A stretch of DNA of 64,000 nucleotides from positions 2,464,001-2,528,000 of the forward strand of contig CH464491.1 in the NCBI GenBank assembly GCA_000002445.1. The letters run 5' to 3'. Below, piece by piece: positions 14,655-58,806 of this stretch. Below the pieces are notes generated by a model that was given only the letters and a program-made list of their open reading frames with translations, searched no databases and was not told where the DNA came from. Source of the DNA: Trypanosoma brucei. Its lineage: Eukaryota. A program made the position numbers and the translations under genes. Position 1 is the first letter of the stretch; each line of letters starts with the position of its first letter.

Positions 14655-14705
14655 ACCAGTAATTTTTTTTTTGCTTCTTCTTTGTTTTGCTACTTTATGC
14701 AATAG
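14655..14705 (+). promoter_or_regulatory. Polypyrimidine tract plus AG: probable spliced-leader acceptor and polyadenylation determinant for the downstream large gene
   Basis: gcaccagtaatttttttttttgcttcttctttgttttgctactttatgcaatag. Tracts of this kind are the established signals for trans-splicing and coupled polyadenylation in kinetoplastids. Confidence 0.5.
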
Positions 14706-26175: not shown

Positions 26176-27000
26176 GGGTGACTCCCCAAGTTTTTGAGAT
26201 TCAGTTTCTGTATACGTTTCGTTTCGGTGTTATCATTCACCATTACTACTGTTTTCTCAACATCAACCCACTGAGCACGGATGTGCATGTGGGGTATTGT
26301 ATGTCTCTGGGCACTGGCAACGACGCAGGGGGAACAAATGTCCGAACTGGCCGGCTGCATATTTGGCAGATTCGGCTCTACTAAAAATGACGCGAAATGC
26401 AAAAAGGGATATACGTTATCTCCGTACTAATCTTTGCGCCTCCTTACGTGGTGTCAGTTATGAAGCTAATCTGCCTACCGCCCCCCCCCTCTTCCATTGA
26501 AACCCCGGTGTATACTTTTCGTTTTCTTTGTACTTTTCCTTTACTTCTTTTGTTTGTATATTTTATAATAAGGAAGTGGCTAACCTGTTGCTTATGGAAG
26601 TCAGTCGCGTTTTGTGCATGCAACATTGTGCTTAAACTTCAAAAACATTAAAGATAAAATAACGCATTGCACATCCTTCTTTTGCTTTTAATATGGTGTT
26701 GCATCTTGCCGACTGTCCGCCAACCTCGTTTTGCGCCACCAGCCTGTTTTCATTCTTCTTTTCTTTTATGTGTGTGTTATACTTCTCATGCGTTGTTAAC
26801 ACCACTGTAGTTTTCCACCTGTAGGAAACGCCAGGTGCGCCACGGCATCCAAAGGGTTACTCAGCAGAAACCTTACAAGGAAGCCAATTGTCTAACACGC
26901 TGCTGTGGAGGTTTCTATCTGCACCATTTTCCATTCATACATATACGTATACCGATTTCTTTACCCGAATATTTATTTTAAAAAAAACCGTACTCGGGCG

Positions 27001-39769: not shown

Positions 39770-40252
39770 AGCGATCAGTGCGTAAAAACTTTGAGTATGA
39801 TGGTTGCACCAGGTATATCCTCTCAGTAACCTCCATAACCAACTTTGACCTCCGTGATCGCTGACCTGGTGAAGCTGACATCGCGCGATTTCGGTGGCCA
39901 GGAAAGAAGGAAGTGGGTAGATATATAACGGATAAGGGTGCGGCTTCAAGAGAAGAAAAGTATACCTGGTTGCACCCGGTGGGACTTTGTGCCTTCTTAG
40001 CTCCGGTGCGCTGACGGTTGTACGTTGGCTCTATACGTAGCGCATATGCTGCCGTACTCGGCGAGATTTCGAGCATGTAGTTTGATCATTTGTCTAGTAC
40101 GTTCACAGGTCTCCGGCAATGTTTTTGTTTTTCTTTTTACTTGCAAGTGGGTTGTGCTTGTGCTCAATACCCAGCGGGCAATAGTCTTCTGGGCTCACTC
40201 GGCTTACGCCACTGTGTTGGGTCGGCATGCACCTATGTCCCGATGTTGGTTG

Positions 40253-40311
40253 CATTTTTCTCTTATTCCCTTCCCCCACTGTCTTATTTTACACGTGTAT
40301 TTGTTGCAAAG
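40253..40311 (+). promoter_or_regulatory. Polypyrimidine tract plus AG immediately upstream of the preferred PUS7 start codon
   Basis: tttttctcttattcccttcccccactgtcttattttacacgtgtatttgttgcaaag|ATG. Confidence 0.5.
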
Positions 40312-43014
40312 ATGAGGGTGGGGTGGACAACTCGCTCCCCAGTGAAGTCAAAATGGATATGGGAACTTGAGCCGAGCAGGCTCCGCGCTATCGACTTTTT
40401 TACCTACCGTCTCGGGCTTTTCAGCGATCCCTCCACGAAGTGTACCAGGAAGGTCGCAGTCGACGGTAGCAACGGCAAAATAAGCAATAAAAAACGAAAT
40501 GCGAATCGATTAAACAAACTGTCTGAACCTTTGAGCCCTATTCCGTCACCCTATGGCGGGGAGCTTACGAAGGCGCACAATACCGCAGGCGATGGATGCA
40601 GTAGGATTTTCTCATTCTCTCCCTTGAAGCTGATGCAACGGATGATGCGCGAGTGGGAAGAAGAGCAGCGAGAGCTTTTGTCGCGAGATGAAGAAATCCT
40701 GGCAAGGGAAGAAGCGCAAATGGCTTCTATTATGAAGCATCCATCCGCATTGTTCGGGGATGAAGCAGCGGTCCTGTACAAATTTGGCATGGGTGCCTTC
40801 GTTTCACCGAACGCACCGGGCTTCTCGGGAATTTTTCGGCAGCATTGGAAGGACTTTTTGGTCACGGAAATGGTCTACGATAGTGAGGGAGAAGATGGCA
40901 AACCACTTTCCCGCGAGCTCGATTGGACTATTCCACCACTTCCTGATTGTTTTCGTTCAGTTGATGAATCAGATACCAAATATGTGCATGGTGGCAGCAC
41001 GGCTAGCGGTGAAAACCGCATCAACAGTTTCTTTACCGTCGATATAGGAGGGCAGTTAAAACAAATAATGAAGGAAGATAGCGGCGAGGGAGATAGCAAA
41101 AGAACGGGGGTGGAACCCCTAACGGGTAATCTGTCTGGCGCAGCCTCACGAAATAAATCTCGACTAGAGGGAAACGGCCAGGATGAGGATTCGAGCGAAT
41201 TTAGGACGGGGAAGTTTTACCTTCAGTGCTACCTCCGTAAGCAGCATATTGCACACAGCGTCGCGCTCTCCAACATCGCTCAAACTCTTCGAATGCACCC
41301 CTCCTGTATATCCGTAGCCGGTATTAAGGACTACATTGGGGACACGCTGCAAAGGGTCCGGTTGCAAAATGTCACTCCAGCATCAGCGCTAGAAGCAAAT
41401 CGTGTCTTCCGCAAGAAGAAGTGGGCAATGACCCTTTCCGACTTCTCATATCATACGGAACCACTATTTCCTGGGCGGCTGTTCGGTAATCACTTTAAAA
41501 TTGTCCTTCGAGATGTGACGGTGCCAAAGACATGCATTCAACAGGCGGTGTACGAGCTCCAGACGCATGGGTTCCCGAACTATTACGGATGCCAGCGGTT
41601 CTCGTGGTTTGGTGGGACTAATGATGCTGCTTTCGCTATACTAAATCAAAACTGGTTAGCTTTCGCGTTCCGCTTTCTCGGGTATACCAGTCGTGAGCTG
41701 ACACTCCGAGAACTGCTACAGCGTGAAAAAAAATATCCGAACCCAGTACAAGACGAGTATCGTCGCAATATCGTACGGCGTCTTCGATCCATCGCAATAG
41801 AACCCAGTGAATTGGATACGGCTCCATTTCTTGCATGTCCCTCCCTTGGTGCCCCGTTGACCGCTACCGATGGTGGGCCCGTGAGCAAGAAGCAAGAGTT
41901 GATACTTCTGCAGTTACAAGGTGCGTATCTTGATTTGAGCGTGATGAGTCGGCGTCTCACAGCACAGCGTCTCTGTAGCTACTTGTGGAACCAAGTGCTA
42001 ACACTTCGGCTTCACCACTTCGGTGGTAAAGAGGTTTTGGAAGGTGATATGGTTCTACCCGAGGTGCTGCGGCGTGTGCAAACCTCACCAGAAGAACGGA
42101 CTGACTGGTACCGACAGGGTATTCATCTCGTTGAAACTGAGGAAGAAAGAGAGAGAACGTCCATTATGAATGTTATTCATCCTGGTTTCTCCTTCAATTC
42201 CATGCGGTTGCCGCAGAACGCGGTAGGGGAGTATTTTCTTCAGGTGTGTCAAAAGTACCACCTGGAATGGCACAGCCGCCACTCGAGGTTGGGGATTCAC
42301 GACTTCTTTGAGCCACCGCGCCCTATTATTCGTAAACCAATGAACCTGCGGTATGACTACGACACTGAGTCATGCAAGTTGACGCTTGAATTTTCTCTTG
42401 AGCGTGGCAGCTACGCTAATGTTGTTCTTACAGAGCTCATGAAACAAGCTCGTTGTGTTGGTTCCTCTGATATTCTTACCCTTCCCGCTCCCGATGCAAT
42501 GTGGGAGTTTGGAAACCGCGATCCTGGATACGTCACATCCCTGCAAGACATATACGAAGGATTTCAAGACGGTGTTGGGTTTGTGAATGAGGAGCACGTC
42601 CTACCTTTTGTTGGGGATGTCAAGCCGTGGGACTATAATACCGGGCCGCTCTTTCTACCGGAGAGTGCAGATCCTGTGCGCAAAGCACATCGTTGGGGAT
42701 CACGGCACCTGATTCGGAATATGGCCCGCCGGGAACAAGATGAGGAGGAAATGAGGTTGCGACTATTTGAGAAACCACTCGCCAAAACACTTAAAGATGG
42801 CGAAGTGAGCTGTTACGCCGGGCACACAGTTCCCCTTCCACCCAATGCTAAGGCGAAGAAAATATTCTTTAAAGTCCTCCGCCGGCAGCGTCGCTACCCC
42901 GGGGCACCCAAAACCACGCCACGTATCAAACGCGGTGCAGAGGTTCAAAGGAGGGAAACGGCTCGTGTGCCGTTTAAAACCATTAACAAGAATACGTGGA
43001 ACGTGACGTGGTGA
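40312..43014 (+). CDS. PUS7: tRNA pseudouridine synthase, TruD/Pus7 family
   Basis: TruD signature GFPNYYGCQRFSWFGG, cf. the NYFGxQRFG motif, following FKIVLRDV. The ORF opens at 40090, but those codons cross two polypyrimidine tracts (40120-40145 and 40253-40310), so ATG 40312 (MRVGWTT) is preferred. Confidence 0.75.
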   Translation: MRVGWTTRSPVKSKWIWELEPSRLRAIDFFTYRLGLFSDPSTKCTRKVAVDGSNGKISNKKRNANRLNKLSEPLSPIPSPYGGELTKAHNTAGDGCSRIFSFSPLKLMQRMMREWEEEQRELLSRDEEILAREEAQMASIMKHPSALFGDEAAVLYKFGMGAFVSPNAPGFSGIFRQHWKDFLVTEMVYDSEGEDGKPLSRELDWTIPPLPDCFRSVDESDTKYVHGGSTASGENRINSFFTVDIGGQLKQIMKEDSGEGDSKRTGVEPLTGNLSGAASRNKSRLEGNGQDEDSSEFRTGKFYLQCYLRKQHIAHSVALSNIAQTLRMHPSCISVAGIKDYIGDTLQRVRLQNVTPASALEANRVFRKKKWAMTLSDFSYHTEPLFPGRLFGNHFKIVLRDVTVPKTCIQQAVYELQTHGFPNYYGCQRFSWFGGTNDAAFAILNQNWLAFAFRFLGYTSRELTLRELLQREKKYPNPVQDEYRRNIVRRLRSIAIEPSELDTAPFLACPSLGAPLTATDGGPVSKKQELILLQLQGAYLDLSVMSRRLTAQRLCSYLWNQVLTLRLHHFGGKEVLEGDMVLPEVLRRVQTSPEERTDWYRQGIHLVETEEERERTSIMNVIHPGFSFNSMRLPQNAVGEYFLQVCQKYHLEWHSRHSRLGIHDFFEPPRPIIRKPMNLRYDYDTESCKLTLEFSLERGSYANVVLTELMKQARCVGSSDILTLPAPDAMWEFGNRDPGYVTSLQDIYEGFQDGVGFVNEEHVLPFVGDVKPWDYNTGPLFLPESADPVRKAHRWGSRHLIRNMARREQDEEEMRLRLFEKPLAKTLKDGEVSCYAGHTVPLPPNAKAKKIFFKVLRRQRRYPGAPKTTPRIKRGAEVQRRETARVPFKTINKNTWNVTW

Positions 43015-44013: not shown

Positions 44014-44424
44014 GGTTTCCGCTGCTTTCGGCTGCCCGTACACGTGGACACAACCGCAGCATGGCAGGCAAAGGGCTGGGAAAGGAGAAGCTGGGACACT
44101 GAAGTAAGTAAATGCTGGAAAAGAGGTAAATCGCGGTGGTGTTACATTACTACAAAACTCAGGTTGCACTGGCAGCTGAATTTTTTCACTCCTCTGTGCA
44201 TGGTGTCTTGTTTGAGGGAGATGATGTAGCTTCAAACTCGTTAATTCCTGTTGTTTTGATTCCTTGGAAAGGATTTGGTGAGCACGCTCACATGGTTCTC
44301 TTTTGTGTTTGTTTGTTTTCCCTTCGCACACGCCTACAACGTAAGACACACCAATTCACCACGAGGCGGCACGCCCTCAGCTCCGCACGGTCCTCCCGTG
44401 TTGGTGTGCACGCAGGCCTGACGA

Positions 44425-47321
44425 TGACAGAGGACGAGGAACCATATGTTATGGCCTTCGAGCCCTACACAGTGCAGAGGGAAATGATGCGAACTGTTCA
44501 TTTGGCTCTTAATTCCTGGCCTCGGCACACCCCCATTGCGGCGATTGAGGTTCCCACCGGGTGTGGAAAGACGCTGGCATTGCTTTCAAGCGTGTTGCGC
44601 TACCAGGCAGGGTTGGAGAAACACACACCACAGGAGCTGGAGCAGCACTTTCGCCTGCGGAGGTGTAGGGGTCCCCCAGTGTTGCCCTCATTGTCAAGAA
44701 CGGAAATGTCGTCACGTAAATGGTGCCACTGCAAGGAAGACAGTAAACACAGTGAAGAGTCGAATGGTTTGAAAGCAAATACAGCGGACGGTGAAGAAGC
44801 TTGGCGTGTGTCGTCGTTATTTCTGAGGCAGTTCAGGCCACCGAACGGCAAACGTCTGCGTGTTGAGCTAGTAACTGAAGGATCGTTGGAACTCCGCAAG
44901 CAGCATCAATCGCCGCCATGTACGATTTTTTACGTGACGCGTACGCACGCGCAGCTTCGACAGTGTGTGGGGGAACTGCGTAAACTCAAAGGTCTGGAGA
45001 GACTGAAAATGAATATCCTGGGAAGCCGCAAGCAATACTGCATAAACCAACATGTGCTGAAGGCGTGTGCAAACAAGACGCTTCCTATAGAGGGAAACAA
45101 CCTTGGTGAAGTCTGTGACAAGCTTGTGTCTCTCGGTCAGTGCGAAGCCGTTCATGGCTACGGTGTCCTTGGTAGTAAGGCTATAACTCACCCCCTGAGC
45201 CAAGGACGGAGTGACAAAGTGTGGGATATTGAAGATTTGGTAACCGAAGGTGTAGGAATGGAGTGTTGTCCGTATTATGCCGCGAGAGACCTTGTCTTCT
45301 TCGCCCACATCAACTTTGCCACGTATCAGTATCTTCTGGACCCGCTCATTCGTCATGAGTGCAAGATGGAGGCTGCCCTAAAAAATCACTCCATCATTAT
45401 CTTTGATGAGGCACACAACGTCCCGCAAGTGTGTCAAGATGCATTATCCGTAGAGACGTCAGTGGACACGCTCCGTCTCATCCTAAATGAGATCGAGCCT
45501 CTAATACAACCCACTGTGGCGGTGGCGACGCTCAGCTACCCGCGCGAGTTCAAACTAACCAAATGGACACTTGTGGAGCTACTTTCCCTACTGTATGACG
45601 TATTCAAAGCCGTCACAGAGTTCGTGTCACCTGCGCAACCGTCGGTAAAAACGCAGCGTGGGGTACACTCCCGGCCGGTGGGGGGACAAGATGTCGAGGA
45701 AAGTGAAAGTAACCATGACGTTGAGAACAACGCAATCTTTCCAGGCGAAACCCTCGCAGAAGTGTTACGCCGCTGCATTACGGATTACATACCGATCGCT
45801 TCTAGCTGCAGCCGTCGAGGGTATGGGACCGCAGAGAGTTCAGCATCGAAAGACGGTGTAGCGATGTTTCGGCAAGTTTACGGGATTATAATGTCTCTGG
45901 GGGTCACCTTTAATCCATTCCAGTTCTCCATTTTTTGTCTTTCACTTATGAAGCGTTGGATCCTCATCATGCGCTTTATCATCCAGAAACCGAGCGCCTT
46001 TGTCCTCAGCATCAGTGACCCATTGCCAGAAAAAAACCGTAACGGTCAAGACAGCGTCCCAAGCAGTGAGGCTGGCGGCAACACCGAGGGGGTTGAGTCA
46101 GCTGTGCCATCACGAAGAATTGTTGGTATCCGATGTTTGGATGGTAGTTTGGCATTTCAGCACATCTTGAGTACCGCTCACCGTGTTGTGTTGGCCTCCG
46201 GGACACTTGCGCCGTTTCATCAGTTGGGACGAGACTTGGGAATACCACCTTCCAGTATGGCAACTTATGAAGGATTGCATGTGGCACAGAAGCATCAGTA
46301 TCGATTGGGGGTTCTCACACATACTGTGGATGCCACTCCGTTGCACTGTACCTACGGGAGTTTGAAGGATCCTTCTTTCATTAGTCAGCTTGTGGAGACA
46401 CTCGCTATGCTTGTTGAAAAAGTGGAACTTGGAGGTGTTCTCGTCTTCATGCCCAACTACACCGTAATGAAAACCATCGGGTTGCAGCTCATTTCTCGTT
46501 ACCGTGACGCAGCCCGTCAGATGGAAGGAACACCAAAGTCTTCTAGGTTCCCGCAGGTTTTCCTCGAGAGTCAGTCAGCAGCTGATTTCCCTTCAGTGCT
46601 AGATAGCTTCCGAAAGGCTACAGTTCGTGGCCCAGCCGTTTTCGCCTCTGTTTTTCGAGCGAAAGTGAGTGAAGGGATTGACTTCGCGGATTGCATGGCC
46701 CGTCTTGTCGTGTGTGTGGGAGTCCCTTTACAGCCGTTGAAATCGTGGACGGTGCAAGCACAGAGGAGATACAGTGGGGAGGAGTGGTACGTAAATGATG
46801 CGGTCCGCGCTGTTAATCAAGCCCTTGGACGCTGCATACGTCACTCACGAGATTTCGGTGCGATGGTCCTGTTGGACGACCGTTTTGAACAAATGAACCT
46901 TCAGCAATCCCTGTCAAGATGGTGCCGCGAGGAGTTGAGGGTCCACCACTCACACGCGTCGTTAGCGGATGATCTTCATGAGTTCTTTCGCACTTGCAGG
47001 GGGGGAAATGCAATAGCGAAGGATTCTCATCTCAGAGAAAACGTAAGCGGTGGAAATACCAGCCAAGGAGAAGAACTGTATTGCCGGTCACTGGAAAAAG
47101 AAAACGTCCCTCCCCCCATTAAGGAAGAACGAGTGACCAGCATCTTGGATGCACCCTTTCTCATGGGGCCTGTACTGAAGCCGAAGGTTCCAACTTACAC
47201 ACGACAGTTGAGTTGCACCGCATTAAAACTCATGTACGAAGCCCATGATGATGTCTCCCAAGTTACAGCCGAAGAGCTTCGTGAGGCACTGCGACTCTTG
47301 GAGGACGGGTTTCCGCAGTGA
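44425..47321 (+). CDS. RAD3/XPD-family (DEAH) iron-sulfur DNA helicase, ChlR1/DDX11-, FANCJ- or RTEL1-like
   Basis: Motif I EVPTGCGKTLALL. N-terminal AFEPYTVQ, cf. the FPF.PY.IQ start of ChlR1/FANCJ. IFYVTRTHAQL, cf. the family's YCSRTHSQL. Four-Cys Fe-S insertion (CINQ...VCDK...GQCEA...ECCPYY). DEAH-box IIFDEAHN. VLASGTLAP. SEGIDFAD. The ORF opens at 44136 across a pyrimidine tract (44300-44335), so ATG 44425 (MTEDEEP) is preferred. Confidence 0.8.
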
Positions 47322-48155: not shown

Positions 48156-49202
48156 ATGGAGTGGGTTCCGTGCACCGAGCAGACGGGGTCGGTGGGCTGC
48201 CGCGAGGGGCACTGCGCAACCTCTCTTCAAGAAAAAAGTACTGGAGAAGAATGGGTTTTGGTTGTTGGGGGATATTGCGAAGGGGAGCGCGACGGCGCGG
48301 TTATGGCAGCGCGAGCAGATGGACTGCCGATGCTACGATGGGTTCGGCTGGATAAGCCCAACATGACGTGGTTCGAATGTGATGGGGCTTCGCTAACGCA
48401 CGTAACTGGCGACACCGCCTACTTCTTTGGTGGATTAAACGAGCACATGAATCACAGTAATCAGTTACTCTGTCTTTCCCTGCATCAGGGGCAACAGGGT
48501 GATCTTTCCCTCGATGTGGTGAAGGTAGAGACAACAGGAGACGTCCCTCTTCCGCGCGCGAGGCATTCAGCTGGTAGTGCCGGGCGGTATTTCGTTGTGT
48601 TCGGTGGTGAAACGGAAGATGCTGAACAAAATAATGACGGATACATCCTGGACACCGACACAATGGTATGGACACGAATTCCAACAGGGCACCAGGTGCC
48701 CAATCCACGACTTCTCGCCGGCCCTCTTGTGTTCTACTCACCCCACGGGTGCATACTTTACGGTGGGGCACACTTTGTGAACGGCGATATAAGGAGTATG
48801 TCTGACGTGTGGAACCTGCACATCCCGCTGGGAGGCACATGGTTTAACGTTTCCTATGGGGACGGCGCCCCCGCCTGTCGCTTCCCGAGGTCGAATGGTC
48901 ACGCCGGTGGCGTTCTGGGGCGGGTTGGGGGAGAAACTGTAGTGTTGTTTGTTGGAGGAAAGGATGCCGCTGAGGGGTGTGACAGAGTAAAACAGGTGCA
49001 GCCTCCGAAATCTGCTGAAGACAAATTCCATCTTCGTCTGGTAGACCCCGTGTTGGCTGGTGGTGAGGGCCCGCACTGGCGGTACACACCAGCAGCGGTA
49101 GATACACGACGTGGCGTATTGCTTTTGGGTGGTCAGTGCCGTCATCCACAGGAGGTTGCTGCCTTCCTACTAAAGCAGACGGGTGTTACTTTGCAACGGT
49201 AA
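48156..49202 (+). CDS. Kelch-repeat (galactose-oxidase-like beta-propeller) protein
   Basis: Repeated kelch-like units: GHCATS...WVLVVGGY, AYFFGGLNE, YFVVFGGE...W, ILYGGAHF, VVLFVGGKD, VLLLGGQ. Confidence 0.65.
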   Translation: MEWVPCTEQTGSVGCREGHCATSLQEKSTGEEWVLVVGGYCEGERDGAVMAARADGLPMLRWVRLDKPNMTWFECDGASLTHVTGDTAYFFGGLNEHMNHSNQLLCLSLHQGQQGDLSLDVVKVETTGDVPLPRARHSAGSAGRYFVVFGGETEDAEQNNDGYILDTDTMVWTRIPTGHQVPNPRLLAGPLVFYSPHGCILYGGAHFVNGDIRSMSDVWNLHIPLGGTWFNVSYGDGAPACRFPRSNGHAGGVLGRVGGETVVLFVGGKDAAEGCDRVKQVQPPKSAEDKFHLRLVDPVLAGGEGPHWRYTPAAVDTRRGVLLLGGQCRHPQEVAAFLLKQTGVTLQR

Positions 49203-49537
49203 CAAATAATCAACAAGGTGGAATCAGTGGAGACAATTTGGAGAGATAGTGCAGTACTGCGCCCTACTGAATTCGGGGTTGTTTCGTTATTATCGTTTAC
49301 GTTTCGTACGCATTTCTTGTTTGTCTTCGCTTTTTTTGGATATGCGTGATGTGGCGCGTCGTTTTCACACAGCCTTTTTCCCTAATGTTAGCCCTCCAAA
49401 CCCTCACCCCCTCAATCTGAAGAAAAAGAGAGGGGCTTTCGTATCCTCAGGACTCGACCGCAAGTATGTCTTTAATTTTTTTTTGTATCATCCCTCATCC
49501 GTTCACCCGCACAAAGTGTTCCAAGGTGTCGATCATC

Positions 49538-50731
49538 ATGCAGATGTTGGCCCCTGGTGCTTTCTTCAACGCATTAAAGGTCCGGGGGGTTACACACTTT
49601 TTTGGAGTTCCTGACCCCATTCTAAAATATTTCTGTGCCTTCGTGGCAAGTCACACGACACCGAAGGAACACATCATCACAGCAAACGAAGGGAATGCAG
49701 TGGCCATGGCTGCAGGTTACCATCTTGCAACTGGGGGACTCCCTTTGGTGTACATGAAAAACAGTGGCTTAGGCGATGCACTCAATCCCCTGATCTCTCT
49801 CACACACGCTGAGGCGTGCAGCATTCCCATGTTTATAGTCGTTGGTTGGCGAGGAGCTCCTGATGCTGGAAATGAGCTACCGTGTGCCGCAGAAGGGCGC
49901 TTGACCGAAGGAATCCTACGTGCTGCTGAGGTCCCGTATATCATTTTATCTTCTGCTTGTGGAAACGGGGAGCAGTCGATGGAAACAGCTCTGGATATGG
50001 CACTGAAGCACGTGCATAATTCAAGGACGCCCTATGCCTTTTTGGTACCACCAAACTTTTTTGAGGAATGCGCTTACGAAGGGGTTGGAGAAGGTATTGC
50101 TGAGCTTCCCATGACTCGCAGGGAGGCGGTTGAACAAGCACTGCGCCAAATAGACCGGGGAGATATAGTTGTGGGCGCCGCAAGCTTCCTTGCTCGTGAA
50201 ATCTTTGAAGTTCAGGAGTGTGCCGGGATGCGACACGGCCCACAATTCTTCCCAGTCGGCAGCATGGGTCATTGTTCTTCCGTAGCAGCGGGTATAGCAT
50301 TGGCCAAACCAGAAAGGCAAGTGTTTTGCTTTGATGGAGATGGCGCATTCCTTATGCACATGGGTTCATCAGCAACCATCGGCGGTGTAGCCGCCATACA
50401 TTTAATAGGTACGGGCGAAACTTCCCTCATGCGCAACTACAAACATGTCGTTTTCAACAACGGATCCCACGATTCGGCAGGTGGTCAACCCACTGTGTCT
50501 TTTGATGTATCCCTCACGCAAGTGGCGAGTGCGTGTGGTTTTAGGACTGTCCGCGAAGAACCCGTAATGGACCTTGGCGAAACTGTGCGGGCCCTTCAGG
50601 AATTAAAGAAGGCGGAAGGGCCCGCGTTCTTGGAAGTATTTGTGCGAAGGGGCGGCCATTCAAACCCACAATGTGAACTTCCCTCTTTAGATGAGAGCAA
50701 ACAAGCTCTCACTAACTGCTTGAGGGGCTAG
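49538..50731 (+). CDS. ppd: Phosphonopyruvate decarboxylase-like thiamine-diphosphate enzyme (Ppd/AepY family; sulfopyruvate decarboxylase is the alternative)
   Basis: FFGVPDPILKYFCAF...HIITANEGNAVAMAAGYHLATGGLPLVYMKNSGLGDALNPLISL...VVGWRG matches the bacterial Ppd N-terminal block FTGVPDSLLKDFCAY..HIITANEGAAIALAAGYHLATGKIPLVYMQNSGLGNTVNPLLSL..IGWRG. A C-terminal TPP-binding region is present (GSMGHCSSVAAGIAL...FDGDGAFLMH). The ORF opens at 49466 across a pyrimidine tract, so ATG 49538 or 49544 is the likely start. Confidence 0.8.
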   Translation: MQMLAPGAFFNALKVRGVTHFFGVPDPILKYFCAFVASHTTPKEHIITANEGNAVAMAAGYHLATGGLPLVYMKNSGLGDALNPLISLTHAEACSIPMFIVVGWRGAPDAGNELPCAAEGRLTEGILRAAEVPYIILSSACGNGEQSMETALDMALKHVHNSRTPYAFLVPPNFFEECAYEGVGEGIAELPMTRREAVEQALRQIDRGDIVVGAASFLAREIFEVQECAGMRHGPQFFPVGSMGHCSSVAAGIALAKPERQVFCFDGDGAFLMHMGSSATIGGVAAIHLIGTGETSLMRNYKHVVFNNGSHDSAGGQPTVSFDVSLTQVASACGFRTVREEPVMDLGETVRALQELKKAEGPAFLEVFVRRGGHSNPQCELPSLDESKQALTNCLRG

Positions 50732-51000: not shown

Positions 51001-52605
51001 GTGACGCTCCGACGTGGCTGGGGTGAAGACAGAAGTTCTGCTCCGTACCGGCTGAAGTGCGTAGGAAAGGCAAAACTAACAAGCATTTCTCAAGCGGCCC
51101 GCAATAGAAACATCGCTGAAAAGAAAGGGGGAATGTTAAGGCGTACAATTTTCCTGGGAAGGGTAACCCGCTCTTGGACCAAAGGATCTATAGTTAAGGC
51201 ATCGGCCCATTTCCCAGATTCTGTGAGGGCTGATCCCGCAGAAAGACGTAATGAAGACTCGTCTCCGAAGGAAAGCCGCACATGGTCTCTTCATGACGGC
51301 CCGTGCAGCGAACCTCTTCACGTTCCCAAACATATTCAATGGGCAACACAGAAGGTGAGAGTTTGGGGGCAACTAATGCGAGTGGATAAGGCTGCTGCAA
51401 TAAACCTCCTGCTTCAACCTTGTTACTGGGGAGCCAGTCTAGCAGTAACTCGGGCCATCGTCTGGGAGGGGGCGGATCCTGTCGTTTTGTTCGCTCCTTT
51501 CATTCCCGTACATTTGATCGTCCTGTTCGGCGCTGGTGCCTTTTTGGCTCGGGGTGCGGGTTGTATTATTAACGACATGTGTGACAGAAAGTTCGACCGA
51601 ATGGTAGAACGCACCAAAACACGGCCGCTTGCTAGCGGTGTTGTCAGCATGAAGGAGGCATCAGGCCTTCTCATAACAGTAGCTGGTTTTGCGCTTGTTA
51701 TTGCACTAAACCTGTCGCCCATGGCACTTGCTTCGGCGGTAGCGTTAGCTCCCATCGCGGCAGTTTATCCGCTCATGAAGCGTATAACCTACATGCCTCA
51801 GCTCGTTCTGGGACTTTGCTTCAACGGCGGCATTTTTGTTGGGTATGCTGCCGTGCTAAACCGCATTGATTTGGCCGTTACGCTTCCTATCTACTGCTCA
51901 GCCGTCGTGTGGACAGTTTTGTATGATACCATCTATGCGTACCAAGACAGGGCGGACGACCTGAAATGCGGTGTGAAGAGCTCGGCTATTCTTATTGGTG
52001 ACAGGAAGCATATTCTCACTTTCATGATACTCCCCATCGGCATGGGTATTCTTATTTCGGGATTGATGGTCTCACAGTCGCTTCCGTTTTACATCGGTGT
52101 CCTCTGTTGCGTTTGGTACCTTCAGGGTGTCGTTGATAACGTCAACATATACGATGCGTGGTCATGTGGTATGGGATTCCGCAGGAACGTACGATTTGCC
52201 ATCCTGGTTACTTTTTCTCTCTGCCTTGGAAACGTGTTGTGGGCACTCGCATCTGAGCACCAACCGGAAAAGGACGCCGCGAGCAACGCCATATCGGAAA
52301 AGTCGGCCTTGATGAAATTCCTTCTTTTGAATAAGGAAGCGGAACCCATGTCGTACAGCGTGCAAGATATTCGTTGGGTAGACCGTTTTGCGCATCCGGC
52401 ATTCGTGGCAGCGCAGAAGGCTCAACACGAGGGAGAGGAAAAAACGGTGGTGGTGCCGGCGTGGATGCGGCGTGAGTACCTGGGTGAGAATGTAGGGACT
52501 ATCATGCGCTTTTTTGGCGTTGACGAGGAAGCAATCCAAACTTGGCAAAAGTGGTGGTACGCGCAACTTGACCACTACAACATGTTCTCCAGCATCGCCG
52601 TTTAG
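51001..52605 (+). CDS. COQ2: 4-hydroxybenzoate polyprenyltransferase (UbiA/COQ2 family) with N- and C-terminal extensions
   Basis: UbiA motifs NDMCDRKFDRMVERTKTRPLASG (Asp-rich motif 1) and YAYQDRADD (motif 2), with multiple TM helices. Basic N-terminal region (alternative start at 51133, MLRRTIFLGR) fits mitochondrial import. About 130 aa of non-UbiA C-terminal tail. Confidence 0.8.
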   Translation: MTLRRGWGEDRSSAPYRLKCVGKAKLTSISQAARNRNIAEKKGGMLRRTIFLGRVTRSWTKGSIVKASAHFPDSVRADPAERRNEDSSPKESRTWSLHDGPCSEPLHVPKHIQWATQKVRVWGQLMRVDKAAAINLLLQPCYWGASLAVTRAIVWEGADPVVLFAPFIPVHLIVLFGAGAFLARGAGCIINDMCDRKFDRMVERTKTRPLASGVVSMKEASGLLITVAGFALVIALNLSPMALASAVALAPIAAVYPLMKRITYMPQLVLGLCFNGGIFVGYAAVLNRIDLAVTLPIYCSAVVWTVLYDTIYAYQDRADDLKCGVKSSAILIGDRKHILTFMILPIGMGILISGLMVSQSLPFYIGVLCCVWYLQGVVDNVNIYDAWSCGMGFRRNVRFAILVTFSLCLGNVLWALASEHQPEKDAASNAISEKSALMKFLLLNKEAEPMSYSVQDIRWVDRFAHPAFVAAQKAQHEGEEKTVVVPAWMRREYLGENVGTIMRFFGVDEEAIQTWQKWWYAQLDHYNMFSSIAV

Positions 52606-55294: not shown

Positions 55295-58008
55295 GGTTTA
55301 CTCTCTTTTGTTATTCACTAGAAGGATATGTGTAGTATATATTTCCCTATGTGAGTCGCTTATTTGCATACCGGTGAAGCGGTTCCTTATGGTGTCAGCG
55401 CCGATGCAGCAACACACGCCAAGACGACACCGCTCTGGTCGCTGGTGCTTTTTTTTTTTTTACTTCTATTTTTCTTTGCCCTCTGCGGCTACCAAAGGAG
55501 CCATCACAATTAGCAAAGGTAGAACTTAGTTGGCCGTACGGCGGGAAAGGTTGTGTGGTAGAATTGGTGTTGAATGTCCGGTGTTTTTCCAATATGTACG
55601 ATGCCGCGCAGAGGCGCAGTGAACCAGCAAAACTGTGGGGGACAAAAAGGAATATACTGATCTGCAAAAGGTCTCGGCTGACGTTTTACCACTTTTTGTG
55701 TACGGATGCGCCGAGACCGAGGTTGCAGTAAAACGTGGCACATAGGGAAAACGACAAAGAGCAATGCGAGCAGCCCCAATTGCAGGTCGCAGGCGCTCTA
55801 AGAAATAAAAGGAAGAGAATAGTGAGCAAGGCAATTCGGAAGCGTGGACCGGCGGGAAGTGCTCCGCGAGGAAAAAAAAATAAAGGCACGACTCAACAAA
55901 TCCACCTAAAAGTGCGGAGGAGAGCAGGATGGAATACATCAACTGCAACATTTATGGAACACAACACCAAGTCCAATTGCTTCCTGAAACAATTTTTTGG
56001 CGCTTGTGTAGAAAAGTGGAGCTGGAGCGGTGGAAACTCGCATGTGACTACATACTGCGATAAGTCATTAGTGAAAGGGAATTTGGGGTGGAGAGTGCAT
56101 ATGGGCAAAAATAGGTTTCCACAACAATTAAACACAAGATTGTTGATTGTTAGCAGTCGTCGCACTACCCGCTTGTGTGCAACAACTTGGCTGTGATATG
56201 GAAATGCTGTGAGCCGACGAGGTCGGGGGAGCGGATGCCAGTTTGGGGGGGCGAATCCCTTTCTTGATTTCCTCTGCCTGGCGCAAGAATGCACCCCCCC
56301 CCCAAAAAAAAAAGAAAACAGCTGGGGAAGCCGAGAAACACCACTGCCCAGGAGAGTATCAACGAGAAAGACAATCTCGCAAGGTTTAAATCCGACTAAT
56401 AACATTGTTGACAGCAACCCCTTTCTGATGTTCAGCAATTGTAATGTGTCTCTCGGCCCGGGGGGGGGGGGGGGAATCCTCTCCGGCACAATTGCACCAT
56501 GCCTTTTCCAACTCGAGCTCACGCTTCATCGGTAATATGGGAATGGGAAGAGGGTAGTTTGTCAGTAACCTTTCGTGCGACTTTGCTAGCATGTACTCCA
56601 CTTTCCCCTCCACACGTGTGGATATTTTCCCCCAGTTTGAGAACCCTTTCAACGGGCTTTTCCCCTAAGTCCCGGGCGTTACACCCCCACTCCCATGATG
56701 AGCCGTTTTGAGACTTCGCCACGAGACCGCCGGTATAACTCTGCGGTGAGGAGTTCATTATTTTCTTTTGTCCTGCGTCGCCGACGCAACCTCCACGATA
56801 AGAAGAAACCCCCGCTTTCCGCGAATGGGCCACTCACGTCAGTTGTCCACCCTCGCGCGAGGAACCACTTACCAGACGAAGTGAACTTAACAACCACCCT
56901 CGTACGATCTTGTTTTTGTATAAATATTGCCCCTCTTCCCGCACGCAGCTGCGCCAGCTACAGTCCGCGGTGCTCGGAACAAACCGTTTCTCGCTTTTTC
57001 CCGCATCCCTTTACTTTCCGCGCAAGCGCGATCCGAGGACACAATGCACGACTCCAGCTCCGACGATGCACCCACCATTTCCTAGAAACCCCTCCGACAA
57101 TGAATTCCTCACGAAACGCGTCATCTTAGTTCACGAGTCCAAAAACGAGAGATAAGGACAAAAATAATCTTGCAAAAGAGTGAGATGTTACTCAGGTTTG
57201 CACCAACATAAATTGCAGCCACACAGATGGGAAGGGAAGATAAGGGCGTGCGCACGCACGCATTAGTTGGATTCGAACAAACGAACATCCCGTTGATCAA
57301 GCACAATGCACTGACGAAATGGGCTGGCGAGACCGGGCTACTCATCCGCCCACTGCGAGCCGAAGGCAGTTGTCGATAATAGCAGGCACCATTTCGCACG
57401 TAAATTCATTACACAAACACGCAAGCAGTTCCTTCATTTGTTTTGGGTTCCAAGACAGCGCAACCCCGCCGCATTTTGCCCAATTCCCATACCCGCACGC
57501 ACGCACGTGCCACTCCCCGGGAAAAAGTTGGGTCAAGATAACTTTTGCCGAGCGCCTGACGTGTGAACTCGAATCTCCAACATGGTACCTGGAACACTGC
57601 AGTGAGCCGCTAGCGCCACAGTTATTTTCGTTGGGTACATCCCAACTGCTGTGGGAAACACTGCAACCCCGTCCTGTCCCGCGAACTGTCGCCCTAAACA
57701 TGTAGAACCCGTGGCATTTCCACTCCAATGCCGCACCCAATCGGTGATATCTTTCCCGCATTCCATGCGGATGTCAAGTTCATTCGCAAGAGATGCGCCT
57801 TCAAGCCAGCACGCCAACCCCTAGCCCACCATACGACCAAAGACACGGCATTCGCGTGGCTGCATTCAGTGGCGCGTACTCGCAAAACTGCAATGTGTTC
57901 GTAGATTTGTCAACAAAGTGAAAAAAAAATAATAATAATACACTCAATCCCATCATTTGAGTGAACGTGTGCAGTCACTAATTGCCGGTGCGACATACAA
58001 AACAAACC
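55295..58008. other. Convergent strand-switch region where the + and - transcription units meet; candidate Pol II termination zone
   Basis: All convincing genes upstream are on + and all downstream are on -. No long ORF on either strand. Contains a C11A10 tract (56295-56315) and a G15 tract (56461-56475). Confidence 0.7.
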
Positions 58009-58806
58009 TTATTCAAGTTCGCAAAGGATGCTTCGCTCCCAGCTTCCATCGATCGACAAGTCAACAAGCTCCGTGTTAACAACACTCTCCTGCTGCTGCA
58101 TACTCAAAAGAAAATGATGGAGCAAGCGAGGTGCGATAACGTGGGGAGTCGGCTCTGCCCCGCTCAATCCTCGTAGCCGGAGTTCCTCCACTAAAGACGT
58201 CGCTGCTTCGTTCGGCATCTCGCACATAACGATATCGTTGAAGTAAAGCAGATTATTACTCACATTCAGTCCCGCACCATGCATAGAGACCCAATTCCCC
58301 AGTTGAAGCCCGACGAACCCCATCTTTCGTGGTGCCACATCTCCCCAACTGTCGGACCAAACCCCAACCCTCCCTCGATGGGCGGGGATGTTGTATTCGC
58401 CCGCTACGTTAATCATAGCCTGTTCCAACACGGAACTAAACCACTCAATTGGGGAACGTGGTTTGTCAGAAGCCGTGCATTGCTTCCACAGAACCTGCAC
58501 GTTAACAATGGGGTACATAGTTACCTGCCCTGGTCCATGGAATGTGACGCCCCCTCCCCTCCTCGTCTTGACCACCTCGGCGGCACAACCCGCTTTGATG
58601 CCATTGGAAGTGTCTCGCCTGCCAATCGTGTAAACAGGAGACGAATGTTCCACAAGCAAAACAACGTTGGGGATGAGGCGAGCAGATTTGTCTCCACGAA
58701 TGTAGCGCATCTGCCTATCGATTTTCTTTCGAAAAATTGCCTCTTGCAGCCGCAGAACATCGTGGTAACGACGGCTTCCAAGGTTATACGCCCGCATTCC
58801 ATTCAT
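58009..58806 (-). CDS. lipB: Lipoyl(octanoyl) transferase LipB
   Basis: VLLVEHSSPVYTIGRRD...NGIKAGCAAEVVKTRRGGGVTFHGPGQVTMYPIVNVQ carries LipB/BPL family motifs: RGG.TYHGPGQ and the conserved Lys in MGFVGLQLGNW. First gene of the - strand unit. Confidence 0.85.
   Translation of the reverse strand: MNGMRAYNLGSRRYHDVLRLQEAIFRKKIDRQMRYIRGDKSARLIPNVVLLVEHSSPVYTIGRRDTSNGIKAGCAAEVVKTRRGGGVTFHGPGQVTMYPIVNVQVLWKQCTASDKPRSPIEWFSSVLEQAMINVAGEYNIPAHRGRVGVWSDSWGDVAPRKMGFVGLQLGNWVSMHGAGLNVSNNLLYFNDIVMCEMPNEAATSLVEELRLRGLSGAEPTPHVIAPRLLHHFLLSMQQQESVVNTELVDLSIDGSWERSILCELE

What the first reader, a model, noticed from the sequence alone, without database searches (positions are those of the whole stretch)
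49538..50731. Bacterial-type phosphonopyruvate decarboxylase embedded in a eukaryotic polycistron
The N-terminal block is nearly collinear with bacterial Ppd/AepY (HIITANEGNAVAMAAGYHLATGGLPLVYMKNSGLGDALNPL...VVGWRG). Ppd commits phosphonopyruvate to 2-aminoethylphosphonate, and among trypanosomatids phosphonolipids and AEP-glycoconjugates are a T. cruzi trait. The gene therefore points to the host species and to a likely horizontally acquired C-P pathway step. Its partners, PEP mutase and the AEP transaminase, are not in this window, so the pathway genes are dispersed, unlike bacterial operons.
Basis: partly seen in the sequence, partly recalled or inferred. Interest (0 to 1): 0.6.

Follow-up and report, generated by a model that had tools for sequence, protein, structure and literature searches.

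The report
Orphaned phosphonopyruvate decarboxylase-like gene, T. brucei
The gene is real and belongs to the phosphonopyruvate decarboxylase family, but it is the already annotated, unusually divergent Trypanosoma brucei copy of an old kinetoplastid gene, in a parasite reported to lack the rest of the phosphonate pathway, so it probably no longer does that job.

Summary
Window 49538-50731 (+) encodes a 397-aa two-domain thiamine-diphosphate enzyme. It passes NCBI's phosphonopyruvate decarboxylase (Ppd) model only narrowly, 329 bits against a cutoff of 312.5.

- **Species.** The protein is 100% identical to T. brucei TREU927 XP_828999.1, "phosphonopyruvate decarboxylase-like protein, putative". 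The host is T. brucei, not T. cruzi.
- **Pathway.** Published work reports that T. brucei has no PEP mutase, no 2-aminoethylphosphonate and no phosphonolipids.
- **Origin.** The gene sits in a gene order (TruD, helicase, Kelch, Ppd, UbiA) shared with T. cruzi and T. grayi. Part of that order is also kept in Leishmania and in free-living kinetoplastid-like contigs. In a tree it falls in a eukaryote-only clade with diplonemids. It is old and vertically inherited, not a recent bacterial import.
- **Divergence.** T. vivax has deleted the gene. The T. brucei copy evolved fast: 57% identity to congeners that are 77-88% identical to each other. It replaced 15 of 77 family-conserved residues, including S27, Q115, H116 and T215/G216, but kept every cofactor-binding motif.

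Best reading: an orphaned Ppd ortholog with a remodelled active site. It is either kept for another 2-oxo-acid role or is slowly decaying. The gene is already known; interest is modest.

The parts
49538..50731 (+). Coding sequence of the Ppd-like protein (397 aa plus stop). Identical to residues 25-421 of T. brucei TREU927 XP_828999.1.
49466..49537 (+). The 24-codon N-terminal extension in the TREU927 annotation. It is probably 5' UTR: pyrimidine-rich and followed by AG dinucleotides.
   Evidence: sequence; in T. b. gambiense the ATG is GTG and the poly-T run is 1 nt shorter; orthologs are about 398 aa.
49559..49870 (+). Pyrimidine-binding (PYR) domain, Pfam TPP_enzyme_N, residues 8-111.
   Evidence: The AF2 model matches RhiE (9iz4_A) with TMt 0.86 and rmsd 2.3 A.
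49688..49690 (+). Glu51, the cofactor-activating glutamate of TPP enzymes. Retained.
   Evidence: column 100% E in 252 homologs, E in T. brucei; aligns with yeast PDC E51.
49616..49618 (+). Pro27, where 98% of the family has Ser. The position aligns with catalytic Ser26 of benzoylformate decarboxylase and Asp28 of pyruvate decarboxylase.
49877..49885 (+). Leu114-Pro115-Cys116 in place of the family motif Pro-Gln-His. Gln and His are 100% conserved in 252 homologs, and His is kept in the solved Ppd RhiE. The loop is roughly equivalent to the His114/His115 loop of pyruvate decarboxylase.
   Evidence: the loop equivalence comes from a low-confidence alignment
50180..50185 (+). Ala215-Ser216 in place of Thr-Gly of the 'STTG' motif at the start of the PP domain. 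The Gly is 100% conserved.
   Evidence: aligns with the PDC 'AETGT' segment. RhiF has 'STCG'.
50243..50638 (+). Diphosphate-binding (PP) domain, Pfam TPP_enzyme_C, residues 236-367.
50336..50344 (+). Gly267-Asp268-Gly269, the start of the TPP/Mg2+ binding motif. Retained.
50456..50461 (+). Asn307-Asn308, the end of the TPP/Mg2+ binding motif. Retained. The following HDS.GGQPT block is also retained apart from V314A.
50666..50674 (+). Pro377-Gln378-Cys379, where the family has the C-terminal 'DLGRP' motif. The Arg (98%) and Pro (99%) are lost.
48156..49202 (+). Upstream Kelch-repeat gene, the conserved partner of the Ppd gene across kinetoplastids.
44136..47321 (+). DEAD_2/Helicase_C_2 helicase gene, part of the conserved gene order TruD, x, helicase, Kelch, Ppd.
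51133..52605 (+). Downstream UbiA prenyltransferase gene. In T. vivax it directly follows Kelch, because the Ppd gene has been deleted there.

Best explanation
This is the T. brucei ortholog of an old kinetoplastid phosphonopyruvate decarboxylase gene. It was inherited vertically at a fixed chromosomal position next to a Kelch-repeat gene. In T. cruzi and its relatives the ortholog looks like a working Ppd and would act after PEP mutase to make 2-aminoethylphosphonate. T. brucei is reported to have no PEP mutase and no phosphonates, so the enzyme has no substrate.

The T. brucei copy still has the fold and every residue needed to hold thiamine diphosphate and Mg2+. It has replaced a set of otherwise near-invariant residues at or near the substrate and catalytic site: S27P, Q74K, N80D, P114L, Q115P, H116C, T215A, G216S and loss of the C-terminal Arg-Pro.

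The most likely present state is a TPP-binding protein that no longer serves phosphonate synthesis. It is kept open by some selection, probably as an enzyme acting on a different 2-oxo acid or in a weak or non-canonical role.

Shown: identity, orthology, synteny, deletion in T. vivax, accelerated evolution, and the pattern of residues lost and kept. Taken from the literature: absence of PEP mutase and AEP. Inferred: loss of Ppd activity, continued selection, and a new substrate.
For: **Identity and family**
- 100% match to T. brucei TREU927 XP_828999.1.
- TIGR03297 scores 329 bits in T. brucei, against 445-465 in T. cruzi, T. grayi, T. theileri and P0007, and 243-268 (below the cutoff) in Leishmania, Novymonas and Strigomonas.

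**Vertical descent**
- The same order TruD, x, helicase, Kelch, Ppd, UbiA occurs in T. grayi and T. cruzi.
- Kelch-Ppd adjacency occurs in L. braziliensis.
- Two metagenomic kinetoplastid-like contigs, whose Ppd is only 46% identical, show TruD, x, helicase, Kelch, Ppd (full order in L002; helicase, Kelch, Ppd in L001).
- In the NJ tree the trypanosomatid clade has 99% bootstrap. It sits inside a 28-sequence clade (75%) with diplonemids, Colponema and a ciliate-labelled transcript, and no named bacterium.
- GC and GC3 match the neighbouring genes.

**Orphan status**
- PEP mutase, AEP and phosphonolipids are reported absent from T. brucei (PMC5648825; PMC2784872).
- T. vivax has only 525 bp between Kelch and UbiA, with no Ppd remnant.
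- No T. congolense ortholog appears among 5.8 billion protein clusters.

**Remodelling**
- T. brucei departs at 15 of 77 columns that are at least 90% conserved in 252 homologs. The other five Trypanosoma depart at 1 each, and the median is 2.
- At columns at least 95% conserved, 9 of 56 are changed in T. brucei, against 0 of 57 in T. cruzi and T. grayi.
- T. brucei is 57% identical to congeners that share 77-88% with each other. The Kelch neighbour shows no such T. brucei-specific acceleration.
- E51, GSMGH, GDG, NN and HDS.GGQPT are all kept.
- S27 aligns with BFDC Ser26 and PDC Asp28. The solved Ppd RhiEF keeps S27, Q74, H116, T214 and G216.
- The same positions were lost independently in Strigomonas, the Leishmaniinae, P0012 and P0008.

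**Continued selection**
- The replacement rate falls from 46% to 16% from the least to the most conserved column class (chi-square p = 0.019).
- In a neutral simulation, 20-25% amino-acid divergence leaves the ORF free of stop codons in only 1-5% of runs.
- The ORF is intact in T. b. brucei, T. b. gambiense and T. equiperdum.
- The equally orphaned Leishmaniinae proteins are 79% identical between genera.
- The AF2 model is confident, with pLDDT 87.5.
Against: - I could not confirm the absence of PEP mutase from the genome. A search with mussel PEP mutase returned only sequences at least 78% identical, from animals, a ciliate and unnamed assemblies, so no trypanosomatid could show up.
- The protein still passes the curated Ppd model. 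B. fragilis Ppd also accepts pyruvate and sulfopyruvate (review PMC11350588), so residual Ppd activity is not excluded.
- Loss in T. vivax, no detectable T. congolense ortholog, and a recent pN/pS of 0.78 (5 nonsynonymous to 2 synonymous changes) fit plain decay equally well. That ratio is not significantly different from the neighbours' 0.40 (Fisher p = 0.69).
- The conservation gradient could come from the part of the branch that predates pathway loss.
- The mapping of lost residues to the active site rests on sequence alignments to BFDC and PDC. The N-domain hhalign had a probability of only 24%. No ligand-bound coordinates were available.
- No expression or phenotype data were found.
Confidence: 0.5

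Rival explanations
1. Decaying relic. After the phosphonate pathway was lost in the salivarian trypanosomes, the gene became dispensable. T. vivax, and apparently T. congolense, have already lost it. The T. brucei copy is an as-yet uninterrupted ORF drifting toward pseudogene status, with no function.
For: - Complete deletion in T. vivax.
- No T. congolense ortholog among the hits.
- Loss of residues that are 100% conserved elsewhere, including positions homologous to catalytic residues of related decarboxylases.
- The HMM score is about 116-123 bits lower than in the other Trypanosoma (up to 136 lower than P0007) and barely above the cutoff.
- pN/pS between T. b. brucei and T. b. gambiense is 0.78, against 0.40 for the neighbours.
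Against: - The ORF is intact despite roughly 23% excess amino-acid divergence. The neutral simulation gives only a 1-5% chance of that, and it ignores indels.
- All cofactor-binding motifs are untouched, and there is a significant conservation gradient.
- Parallel orphan copies in the Leishmaniinae are well conserved, at 79%.
- The pN/pS difference is not significant (p = 0.69).
Confidence: 0.3
2. One reading: a working phosphonopyruvate decarboxylase that commits phosphonopyruvate to 2-aminoethylphosphonate, with PEP mutase and the transaminase encoded elsewhere in the genome.
For: - It passes the TIGR03297 equivalog cutoff.
- It has the full two-domain architecture with the catalytic Glu and the TPP motif.
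- It is orthologous and syntenic with the T. cruzi gene, and T. cruzi has a characterised PEP mutase and AEP lipids (PMC5648825).
Against: - The literature reports no PEP mutase, AEP or phosphonolipid in T. brucei. T. brucei made AEP-ceramide only when fed AEP, and its ECT does not accept AEP.
- 15 of 77 conserved family positions are replaced, including the invariant Q115, H116 and G216.
- The gene is deleted in T. vivax.
Confidence: 0.08
3. Recent horizontal acquisition from bacteria, specific to a trypanosome lineage.
For: - Ppd is mostly a bacterial enzyme, and bacterial homologs are 40-43% identical to the T. brucei protein.
- Berriman et al. 2005 listed it as a candidate transfer (as cited in PMC7954300).
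Against: - The Kelch-Ppd pair and wider synteny are conserved from T. brucei to Leishmania and to distant kinetoplastid-like environmental contigs.
- Diplonemids have homologs, and all named eukaryotes except the mollusc Nucella (which falls just outside with weak support) group with the kinetoplastids in one clade, without named bacteria (75% bootstrap).
- Composition is the same as in flanking genes.
- An ancient transfer into an early eukaryote or euglenozoan cannot be excluded.
Confidence: 0.05

Closest known systems
Phosphonopyruvate decarboxylase (Ppd/AepY), e.g. Bacteroides fragilis; NCBIfam TIGR03297
   Same: - Two-domain PYR+PP TPP enzyme of about 375-400 aa with no middle domain.
- Passes the curated model (329 against 312.5 bits).
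- Has the catalytic Glu and the GDG...NN motif.
   Different: - Lacks family-invariant S27, Q74, N80, P114-Q115-H116, T215-G216 and the C-terminal LGRP.
- No PEP mutase partner is reported in the organism.
Orthologs in T. cruzi, T. rangeli, T. grayi and T. theileri (annotated 'phosphonopyruvate decarboxylase, putative')
   Same: Same chromosomal position between the Kelch and UbiA genes, same length, clear orthology.
   Different: - Those proteins keep 76 of 77 conserved positions and score 445-452 bits. T. cruzi and T. rangeli make AEP lipids.
- The T. brucei protein is only 57% identical to them, while they share 77-88% with each other.
[quoted passage not shown]
   Same: - Orphan Ppd-like genes next to the Kelch ('galactose oxidase') gene, in organisms reported to lack PEP mutase.
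- The same conserved positions are lost.
   Different: - They are more derived: 28 of 77 positions are lost and scores fall below the cutoff.
- The Leishmaniinae even replaced the cofactor-activating Glu (NEG to NCG), which T. brucei keeps.
RhiEF, the split phosphonopyruvate decarboxylase of Bacillus subtilis (PDB 9IZ3/9IZ4)
   Same: - Best PDB sequence hits.
- The N-domain of the model superposes on RhiE with TMt 0.86 and rmsd 2.3 A.
   Different: - RhiEF is two polypeptides.
- It retains S27, Q74, H116, T214 and G216, which T. brucei lacks.
Sulfopyruvate decarboxylase ComDE
   Same: Sister family of small TPP decarboxylases with no middle domain.
   Different: The models score 82 and 65 bits, against cutoffs of 221.5 and 148.
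Pyruvate, indolepyruvate and benzoylformate decarboxylases
   Same: Same PYR and PP folds. The catalytic Glu and TPP motif are equivalent.
   Different: - Those enzymes have a third, middle domain and are about 550 aa.
- Sequence identity is 11-16%.

Membership tests
Phosphonopyruvate decarboxylase (TIGR03297 / EC 4.1.1.82) | Score above the curated equivalog cutoff of the family model | tested here: met
   329 bits against 312.5. The pass is marginal: congeners score 445-452 and Leishmaniinae 243-250.
Phosphonopyruvate decarboxylase (TIGR03297 / EC 4.1.1.82) | Two-domain architecture (TPP_enzyme_N plus TPP_enzyme_C, no central domain, about 375-400 aa) | tested here: met
   Pfam domains at 8-111 and 236-367 of 397 aa. 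AF2 model pLDDT 87.5, TPP-enzyme fold, RhiE TMt 0.86.
Phosphonopyruvate decarboxylase (TIGR03297 / EC 4.1.1.82) | Cofactor machinery: activating Glu, GSMGH, GDG-(X)n-NN | tested here: met
   E51, G241/M243/G244/H245, G267-D268-G269 and N307-N308 are all present.
Phosphonopyruvate decarboxylase (TIGR03297 / EC 4.1.1.82) | Family-invariant residues outside the cofactor site (S27, Q74, N80, P114-Q115-H116, T215-G216, C-terminal LGRP) | tested here: not met
   All are replaced in T. brucei. Q115, H116 and G216 are 100% conserved in 252 homologs. RhiEF keeps S27, Q74, H116 and G216.
Phosphonopyruvate decarboxylase (TIGR03297 / EC 4.1.1.82) | Co-occurrence with PEP mutase, the source of the substrate, in the same genome | not testable with these tools
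   No T. brucei genome or proteome could be searched. The attempt with mussel PEP mutase was swamped by sequences at least 78% identical, mostly metazoan. The window has none. The literature says it is absent.
Phosphonopyruvate decarboxylase (TIGR03297 / EC 4.1.1.82) | Decarboxylation of phosphonopyruvate to phosphonoacetaldehyde | not testable with these tools
   This needs an enzyme assay.
Sulfopyruvate decarboxylase ComDE | Score above the cutoffs of TIGR03845/TIGR03846 | tested here: not met
   64.8 against 147.95, and 82 against 221.5 bits.
Acetolactate synthase-like TPP enzymes | Three-domain architecture, about 550-600 aa, and a score above the family cutoffs | tested here: not met
   397 aa, no middle domain, and about 50 bits against cutoffs of 538-1084.
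Recently horizontally transferred bacterial gene | Nested within a bacterial clade, patchy presence in the host lineage without synteny, deviant composition | tested here: not met
   It falls in a eukaryote-only clade with diplonemids at 75% bootstrap. Synteny is conserved across kinetoplastids. GC is 0.517 and GC3 0.485, against 0.50-0.56 and 0.51-0.55 for the neighbours. The NJ tree is simple, so an ancient transfer is not excluded.

The most novel reading that the evidence does not exclude
Kinetoplastids that lost PEP mutase (T. brucei, and independently the Leishmaniinae/Strigomonas lineage) did not simply discard the partner enzyme. They rebuilt its substrate pocket while keeping the thiamine-diphosphate site, which created a new TPP-dependent activity on a non-phosphonate 2-oxo acid. 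In T. brucei one candidate is the unassigned decarboxylation of indolepyruvate or other aromatic keto acids. That step lies behind the tryptophol and indoleacetate reported as tryptophan catabolites (review PMC6027508).
Probability: 0.1. Interest if true: 0.7.

Novelty: already known. Interest (0 to 1): 0.33.

Why it matters
The gene and its 'bacterial-like' nature have been on record since the 2005 genome paper, so the finding as stated adds nothing new, and its species inference is wrong.

What may be useful is the comparative picture. Canonical Ppd is kept where AEP is made: T. cruzi and T. rangeli by lipid analysis, with canonical sequences also in T. grayi, T. theileri and T. melophagium. 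The gene is deleted in T. vivax. It is rebuilt at the same active-site positions in T. brucei and in the Leishmania group, which lack the pathway.

That picture warns against reading 'phosphonopyruvate decarboxylase' annotations in T. brucei and Leishmania as evidence of phosphonate metabolism or as a drug target. It also defines a small, testable case of an orphan enzyme that is either decaying or being repurposed.

Tried and rejected
1. **Direct test for PEP mutase in trypanosomatids.** I rebuilt mussel PEP mutase residues 21-277 from a PDB alignment and searched the protein collection. All 120 listed hits were at least 78% identical (named ones metazoan or ciliate, the rest unnamed assemblies), so T. 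cruzi and T. brucei could not be seen. This is inconclusive and used the last such search.
2. **T. congolense locus.** The Kelch ortholog P0283 is not on record in the contig index. T. congolense status therefore rests only on the absence of an ortholog among the protein hits.
3. **Papers.** Sarkar et al. 2003 (PEP mutase of T. cruzi) is not held. The supplements of PMC8942020, which lists Ppm-positive protists, are not held. No paper contains 'phosphonopyruvate decarboxylase-like'. No open text gives active-site residues of RhiEF or B. fragilis Ppd.
4. **Full-length hhalign against yeast PDC.** Only the PP domain aligned. An N-domain-only alignment had 24% probability, so the Q115/H116 to His114/His115 equivalence is approximate, within two residues.
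5. **pN/pS between T. b. brucei and T. b. gambiense.** There are only 7 differences in the gene, and the ratio is not distinguishable from the neighbours.
6. **Foldseek against the PDB.** It confirmed only the general TPP fold and RhiE similarity, with no residue-level information.
7. **Rejected readings.** ComDE or ALS-like identity. T. cruzi origin. Compositional evidence of transfer.
Full report
**Observation**

The + strand carries an ORF at 49466..50731 (421 aa). The finding's start, 49538, is Met25 of that ORF and gives 397 aa. [quoted passage not shown]

NCBIfam's equivalog model for phosphonopyruvate decarboxylase, TIGR03297, scores 329 bits (E 3e-98) against a curated cutoff of 312.5. 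The sulfopyruvate decarboxylase and acetolactate synthase models fall far below their cutoffs. The best solved-structure relatives are the two subunits of RhiEF, the split Ppd of Bacillus subtilis.

The shorter start is the better one. In T. b. gambiense the upstream ATG is GTG and the poly-T run behind it is one base shorter. All orthologs are about 398 aa.

**Whose gene it is**

The protein is 100% identical to T. brucei brucei TREU927 XP_828999.1 / Q383Z4, "phosphonopyruvate decarboxylase-like protein, putative", on a 5.26-Mb chromosome. Near-identical copies occur in T. b. gambiense and T. equiperdum. The window is therefore T. brucei, not T. cruzi, and the gene is already annotated.

A Leishmania paper notes that Berriman et al. 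(2005) listed this enzyme as a candidate bacterial acquisition in the three TriTryp genomes. It also notes that its role in Leishmania is unknown (PMC7954300).

**Context and descent**

The window is one long + strand polycistron up to about 55 kb. The local order is:
- TruD (40090-43014)
- a small ORF
- DEAD_2 helicase (44136-47321)
- Kelch (48156-49202)
- Ppd-like
- UbiA (51133-52605)

How this order holds elsewhere:
- T. grayi has exactly the same order. The T. cruzi contig shows Kelch, Ppd, UbiA and the next ORF in the same order; no helicase or TruD gene is called in the stretch retrieved.
- L. braziliensis keeps Kelch followed by a Ppd-like gene.
- Two metagenomic contigs carry a Ppd only 46% identical to this one. 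One (L002) shows TruD, x, helicase, Kelch, Ppd on one strand without introns, and the other (L001) helicase, Kelch, Ppd. That is the signature of a distant kinetoplastid.
- Several other environmental Ppd hits appear to share a contig with a Kelch ortholog, judged by matching contig lengths.

In a neighbour-joining tree of 103 sequences with 200 bootstraps, the trypanosomatid sequences form a clade with 99% support. That clade sits inside a 28-sequence clade (75%) containing the diplonemids Diplonema and Flectonema, Colponema, a transcript labelled as the ciliate Platyophrya, and the Kelch-linked environmental sequences. No named bacterium falls in it. GC and GC3 match the neighbouring genes.

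The gene has therefore been in this chromosomal position since before trypanosomatids diverged from free-living kinetoplastids. Any bacterial origin is ancient. The "horizontally acquired" reading is not supported in any recent sense.

**The missing pathway**

No PEP mutase or AEP transaminase is in the window (tblastn). More importantly, the literature reports that T. brucei and Leishmania lack PEP mutase and AEP. [quoted passage not shown] T. brucei made traces of it only when fed AEP (PMC5648825). Phosphonolipids were not detected in T. brucei, and its ethanolamine-phosphate cytidylyltransferase does not accept AEP (PMC2784872).

I could not verify it independently. A search seeded with mussel PEP mutase returned only sequences at least 78% identical, from animals, a ciliate and unnamed assemblies.

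**What happened to the gene in lineages without the pathway**

- T. vivax has Kelch followed by UbiA after 525 bp, with no trace of a Ppd by tblastn.
- No T. congolense ortholog appears among the hits, although its Kelch ortholog does. The locus could not be fetched.

The T. brucei protein is 57% identical to each of five other Trypanosoma orthologs, which are 77-88% identical to one another. The neighbouring Kelch protein shows no such T. brucei-specific acceleration: 54-58% against 60-62%.

TIGR03297 scores:

| Organism | Score (bits) |
|---|---|
| T. cruzi, T. grayi, T. theileri, P0007 | 445-465 |
| T. brucei | 329 |
| Cutoff | 312.5 |
| L. braziliensis, Novymonas, Strigomonas | 243-268 |

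Across 252 family members, 77 columns are at least 90% conserved. T. brucei departs at 15 of them, each other Trypanosoma at 1, the median sequence at 2, and Strigomonas and Novymonas at 28.

The T. brucei losses are S27P, Q74K, N80D, Y94C, P114L, Q115P, H116C, T215A, G216S, I249V, V314A, F335 in place of the family Tyr (a change shared by all the Trypanosoma orthologs), and the Leu, Arg and Pro of the C-terminal DLGRP motif. Q115, H116 and G216 are invariant in all 252.

All cofactor-site residues are intact: Glu51, GSMGH 241-245, GDG 267-269, NN 307-308 and HDS.GGQPT.

Evidence that the lost residues lie near the active site:
- S27 aligns with catalytic Ser26 of benzoylformate decarboxylase and Asp28 of yeast pyruvate decarboxylase.
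- The PQH loop lies within two residues of the His114/His115 loop of pyruvate decarboxylase, in a low-confidence alignment.
- The TTG motif aligns with the PDC segment 'AETGT' at the start of the PP domain.
- The biochemically verified RhiEF keeps S27, Q74, H116, T214 and G216.
- The same positions were hit independently in Strigomonas, the Leishmaniinae and two unnamed kinetoplastid sequences. The Leishmaniinae also replaced the activating Glu (NEG to NCG).

Several of the lost side chains are polar or cationic (Ser, Gln, His, Thr, Arg), the kind expected to hold a phosphonate. That last point is my inference.

**Relic or repurposed?**

For decay:
- The gene is lost in sister lineages.
- Positions homologous to catalytic residues are gone.
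- Recent pN/pS is 0.78 (5 nonsynonymous to 2 synonymous) between T. b. brucei and T. b. gambiense. This is not distinguishable from the neighbours' pooled 0.40 (48 to 37; Fisher p = 0.69).

For continued selection:
- Replacements in T. brucei fall from 46% in the least conserved column class to 16% in the most conserved (chi-square p = 0.019).
- The excess divergence of the T. brucei branch is roughly 23% of residues. A neutral substitution simulation leaves the ORF stop-free in only 1-5% of runs at 20-25% divergence, and it ignores indels.
- The ORF is intact in three T. brucei-group genomes.
- The AF2 model is confident (pLDDT 87.5). Confidence dips at the remodelled 101-120 and 371-380 loops and at the interdomain linker around residues 181-190. 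The fold is that of TPP enzymes, closest in fit to RhiE.
- The equally orphaned Leishmaniinae proteins are 79% identical between L. braziliensis and Novymonas, more than the Kelch neighbour (L. braziliensis against Leptomonas Kelch is 57%).

I therefore favour a retained TPP-binding protein with a remodelled substrate site (0.5) over a pure relic (0.3). A working Ppd (about 0.08) and a recent transfer (about 0.05) are unlikely.

**Comparison with the known**

The protein works like, and by the curated model is still a marginal member of, the Ppd/AepY family. It fails the family's invariant-residue test and, per the literature, the pathway-context test. The existing label "phosphonopyruvate decarboxylase-like" is apt.

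Nothing here is a new kind of system. The gene, its annotation and the transfer idea are published. Two things I did not find in the literature searched are the explicit link between pathway loss and the parallel remodelling or deletion of the gene, and the conserved Kelch-Ppd pairing.

A speculative extension is that the remodelled enzyme supplies the unassigned aromatic 2-oxo-acid decarboxylation behind the tryptophol and indoleacetate reported from T. brucei (PMC6027508). Nothing here tests that.

**Verdict**

The family assignment is right. The species, the pathway role and the recent-transfer reading are wrong or unsupported. The gene is already known and interest is modest (0.33).

Noticed in passing
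window 49466-49537: The TREU927 gene model starts 24 codons upstream of the conserved Met. In T. b. gambiense that ATG is GTG and the poly-T run (49477-49485) is 1 nt shorter. The extension is therefore probably untranslated leader, with a pyrimidine tract and AG splice-acceptor candidates.
   Followed up: partly
L004 9114-9638 (T. vivax, GCA_021307395.1 SOPI01000131.1): T. vivax keeps TruD, helicase, Kelch and UbiA in order but has only 525 bp between Kelch and UbiA. No remnant of the Ppd-like gene is detectable, so the deletion is clean.
   Followed up: yes
L005 10362-11609 (L. braziliensis) and P0138 (Novymonas): The Leishmaniinae Ppd-like proteins replaced the universal TPP-activating glutamate (NEG to NCG) and score below the family cutoff. 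They are still 79% identical between genera, which suggests a conserved non-canonical role.
   Followed up: partly
L001 932-6629 and L002 709-11233 (ENA metagenome scaffolds): Environmental contigs with kinetoplastid-style one-strand, intron-free gene arrays reproduce the T. brucei order (L002: TruD, x, helicase, Kelch, Ppd; L001: helicase, Kelch, Ppd). They probably come from a free-living bodonid-like organism. The Platyophrya (ciliate) transcript P0009 is 70% identical to their Ppd and could be a contaminant from such an organism.
   Followed up: partly
window about 55300-58000: A convergent strand-switch region. GC skew changes sign at about 56 kb. Beyond it the genes lie on the minus strand: 58009-58806 (LplA/B lipoyl/octanoyl transferase domain) and 59143-61824 (no Pfam match).
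   Followed up: no
window 26905-29586 (+): An 893-aa ORF that combines a PX domain, a protein kinase domain and a C-terminal lipocalin-like domain (PF13924). This is an unusual architecture.
   Followed up: no
window 14687-20590 (+): A 1967-aa ORF with no Pfam match. It lies in a stretch with strong purine skew on the coding strand (GC skew 0.13-0.16, AT skew about 0.15), which suggests a repetitive or low-complexity protein.
   Followed up: no
proteins P0313-P0432: Eukaryotic PEP mutase is remarkably conserved. It is at least 78% identical from mussel to cnidarians, rotifers, insects (Schistocerca, Zootermopsis, Timema) and the ciliate Stentor.
   Followed up: no
proteins P0140, P0159, P0161, P0232, P0245, P0246: Fused phosphonate-pathway proteins turned up among the Ppd homologs: PEP mutase-Ppd, Ppd-Fe-alcohol dehydrogenase, and a triple PEP mutase-Ppd-aminotransferase (1058 aa).
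   Followed up: no
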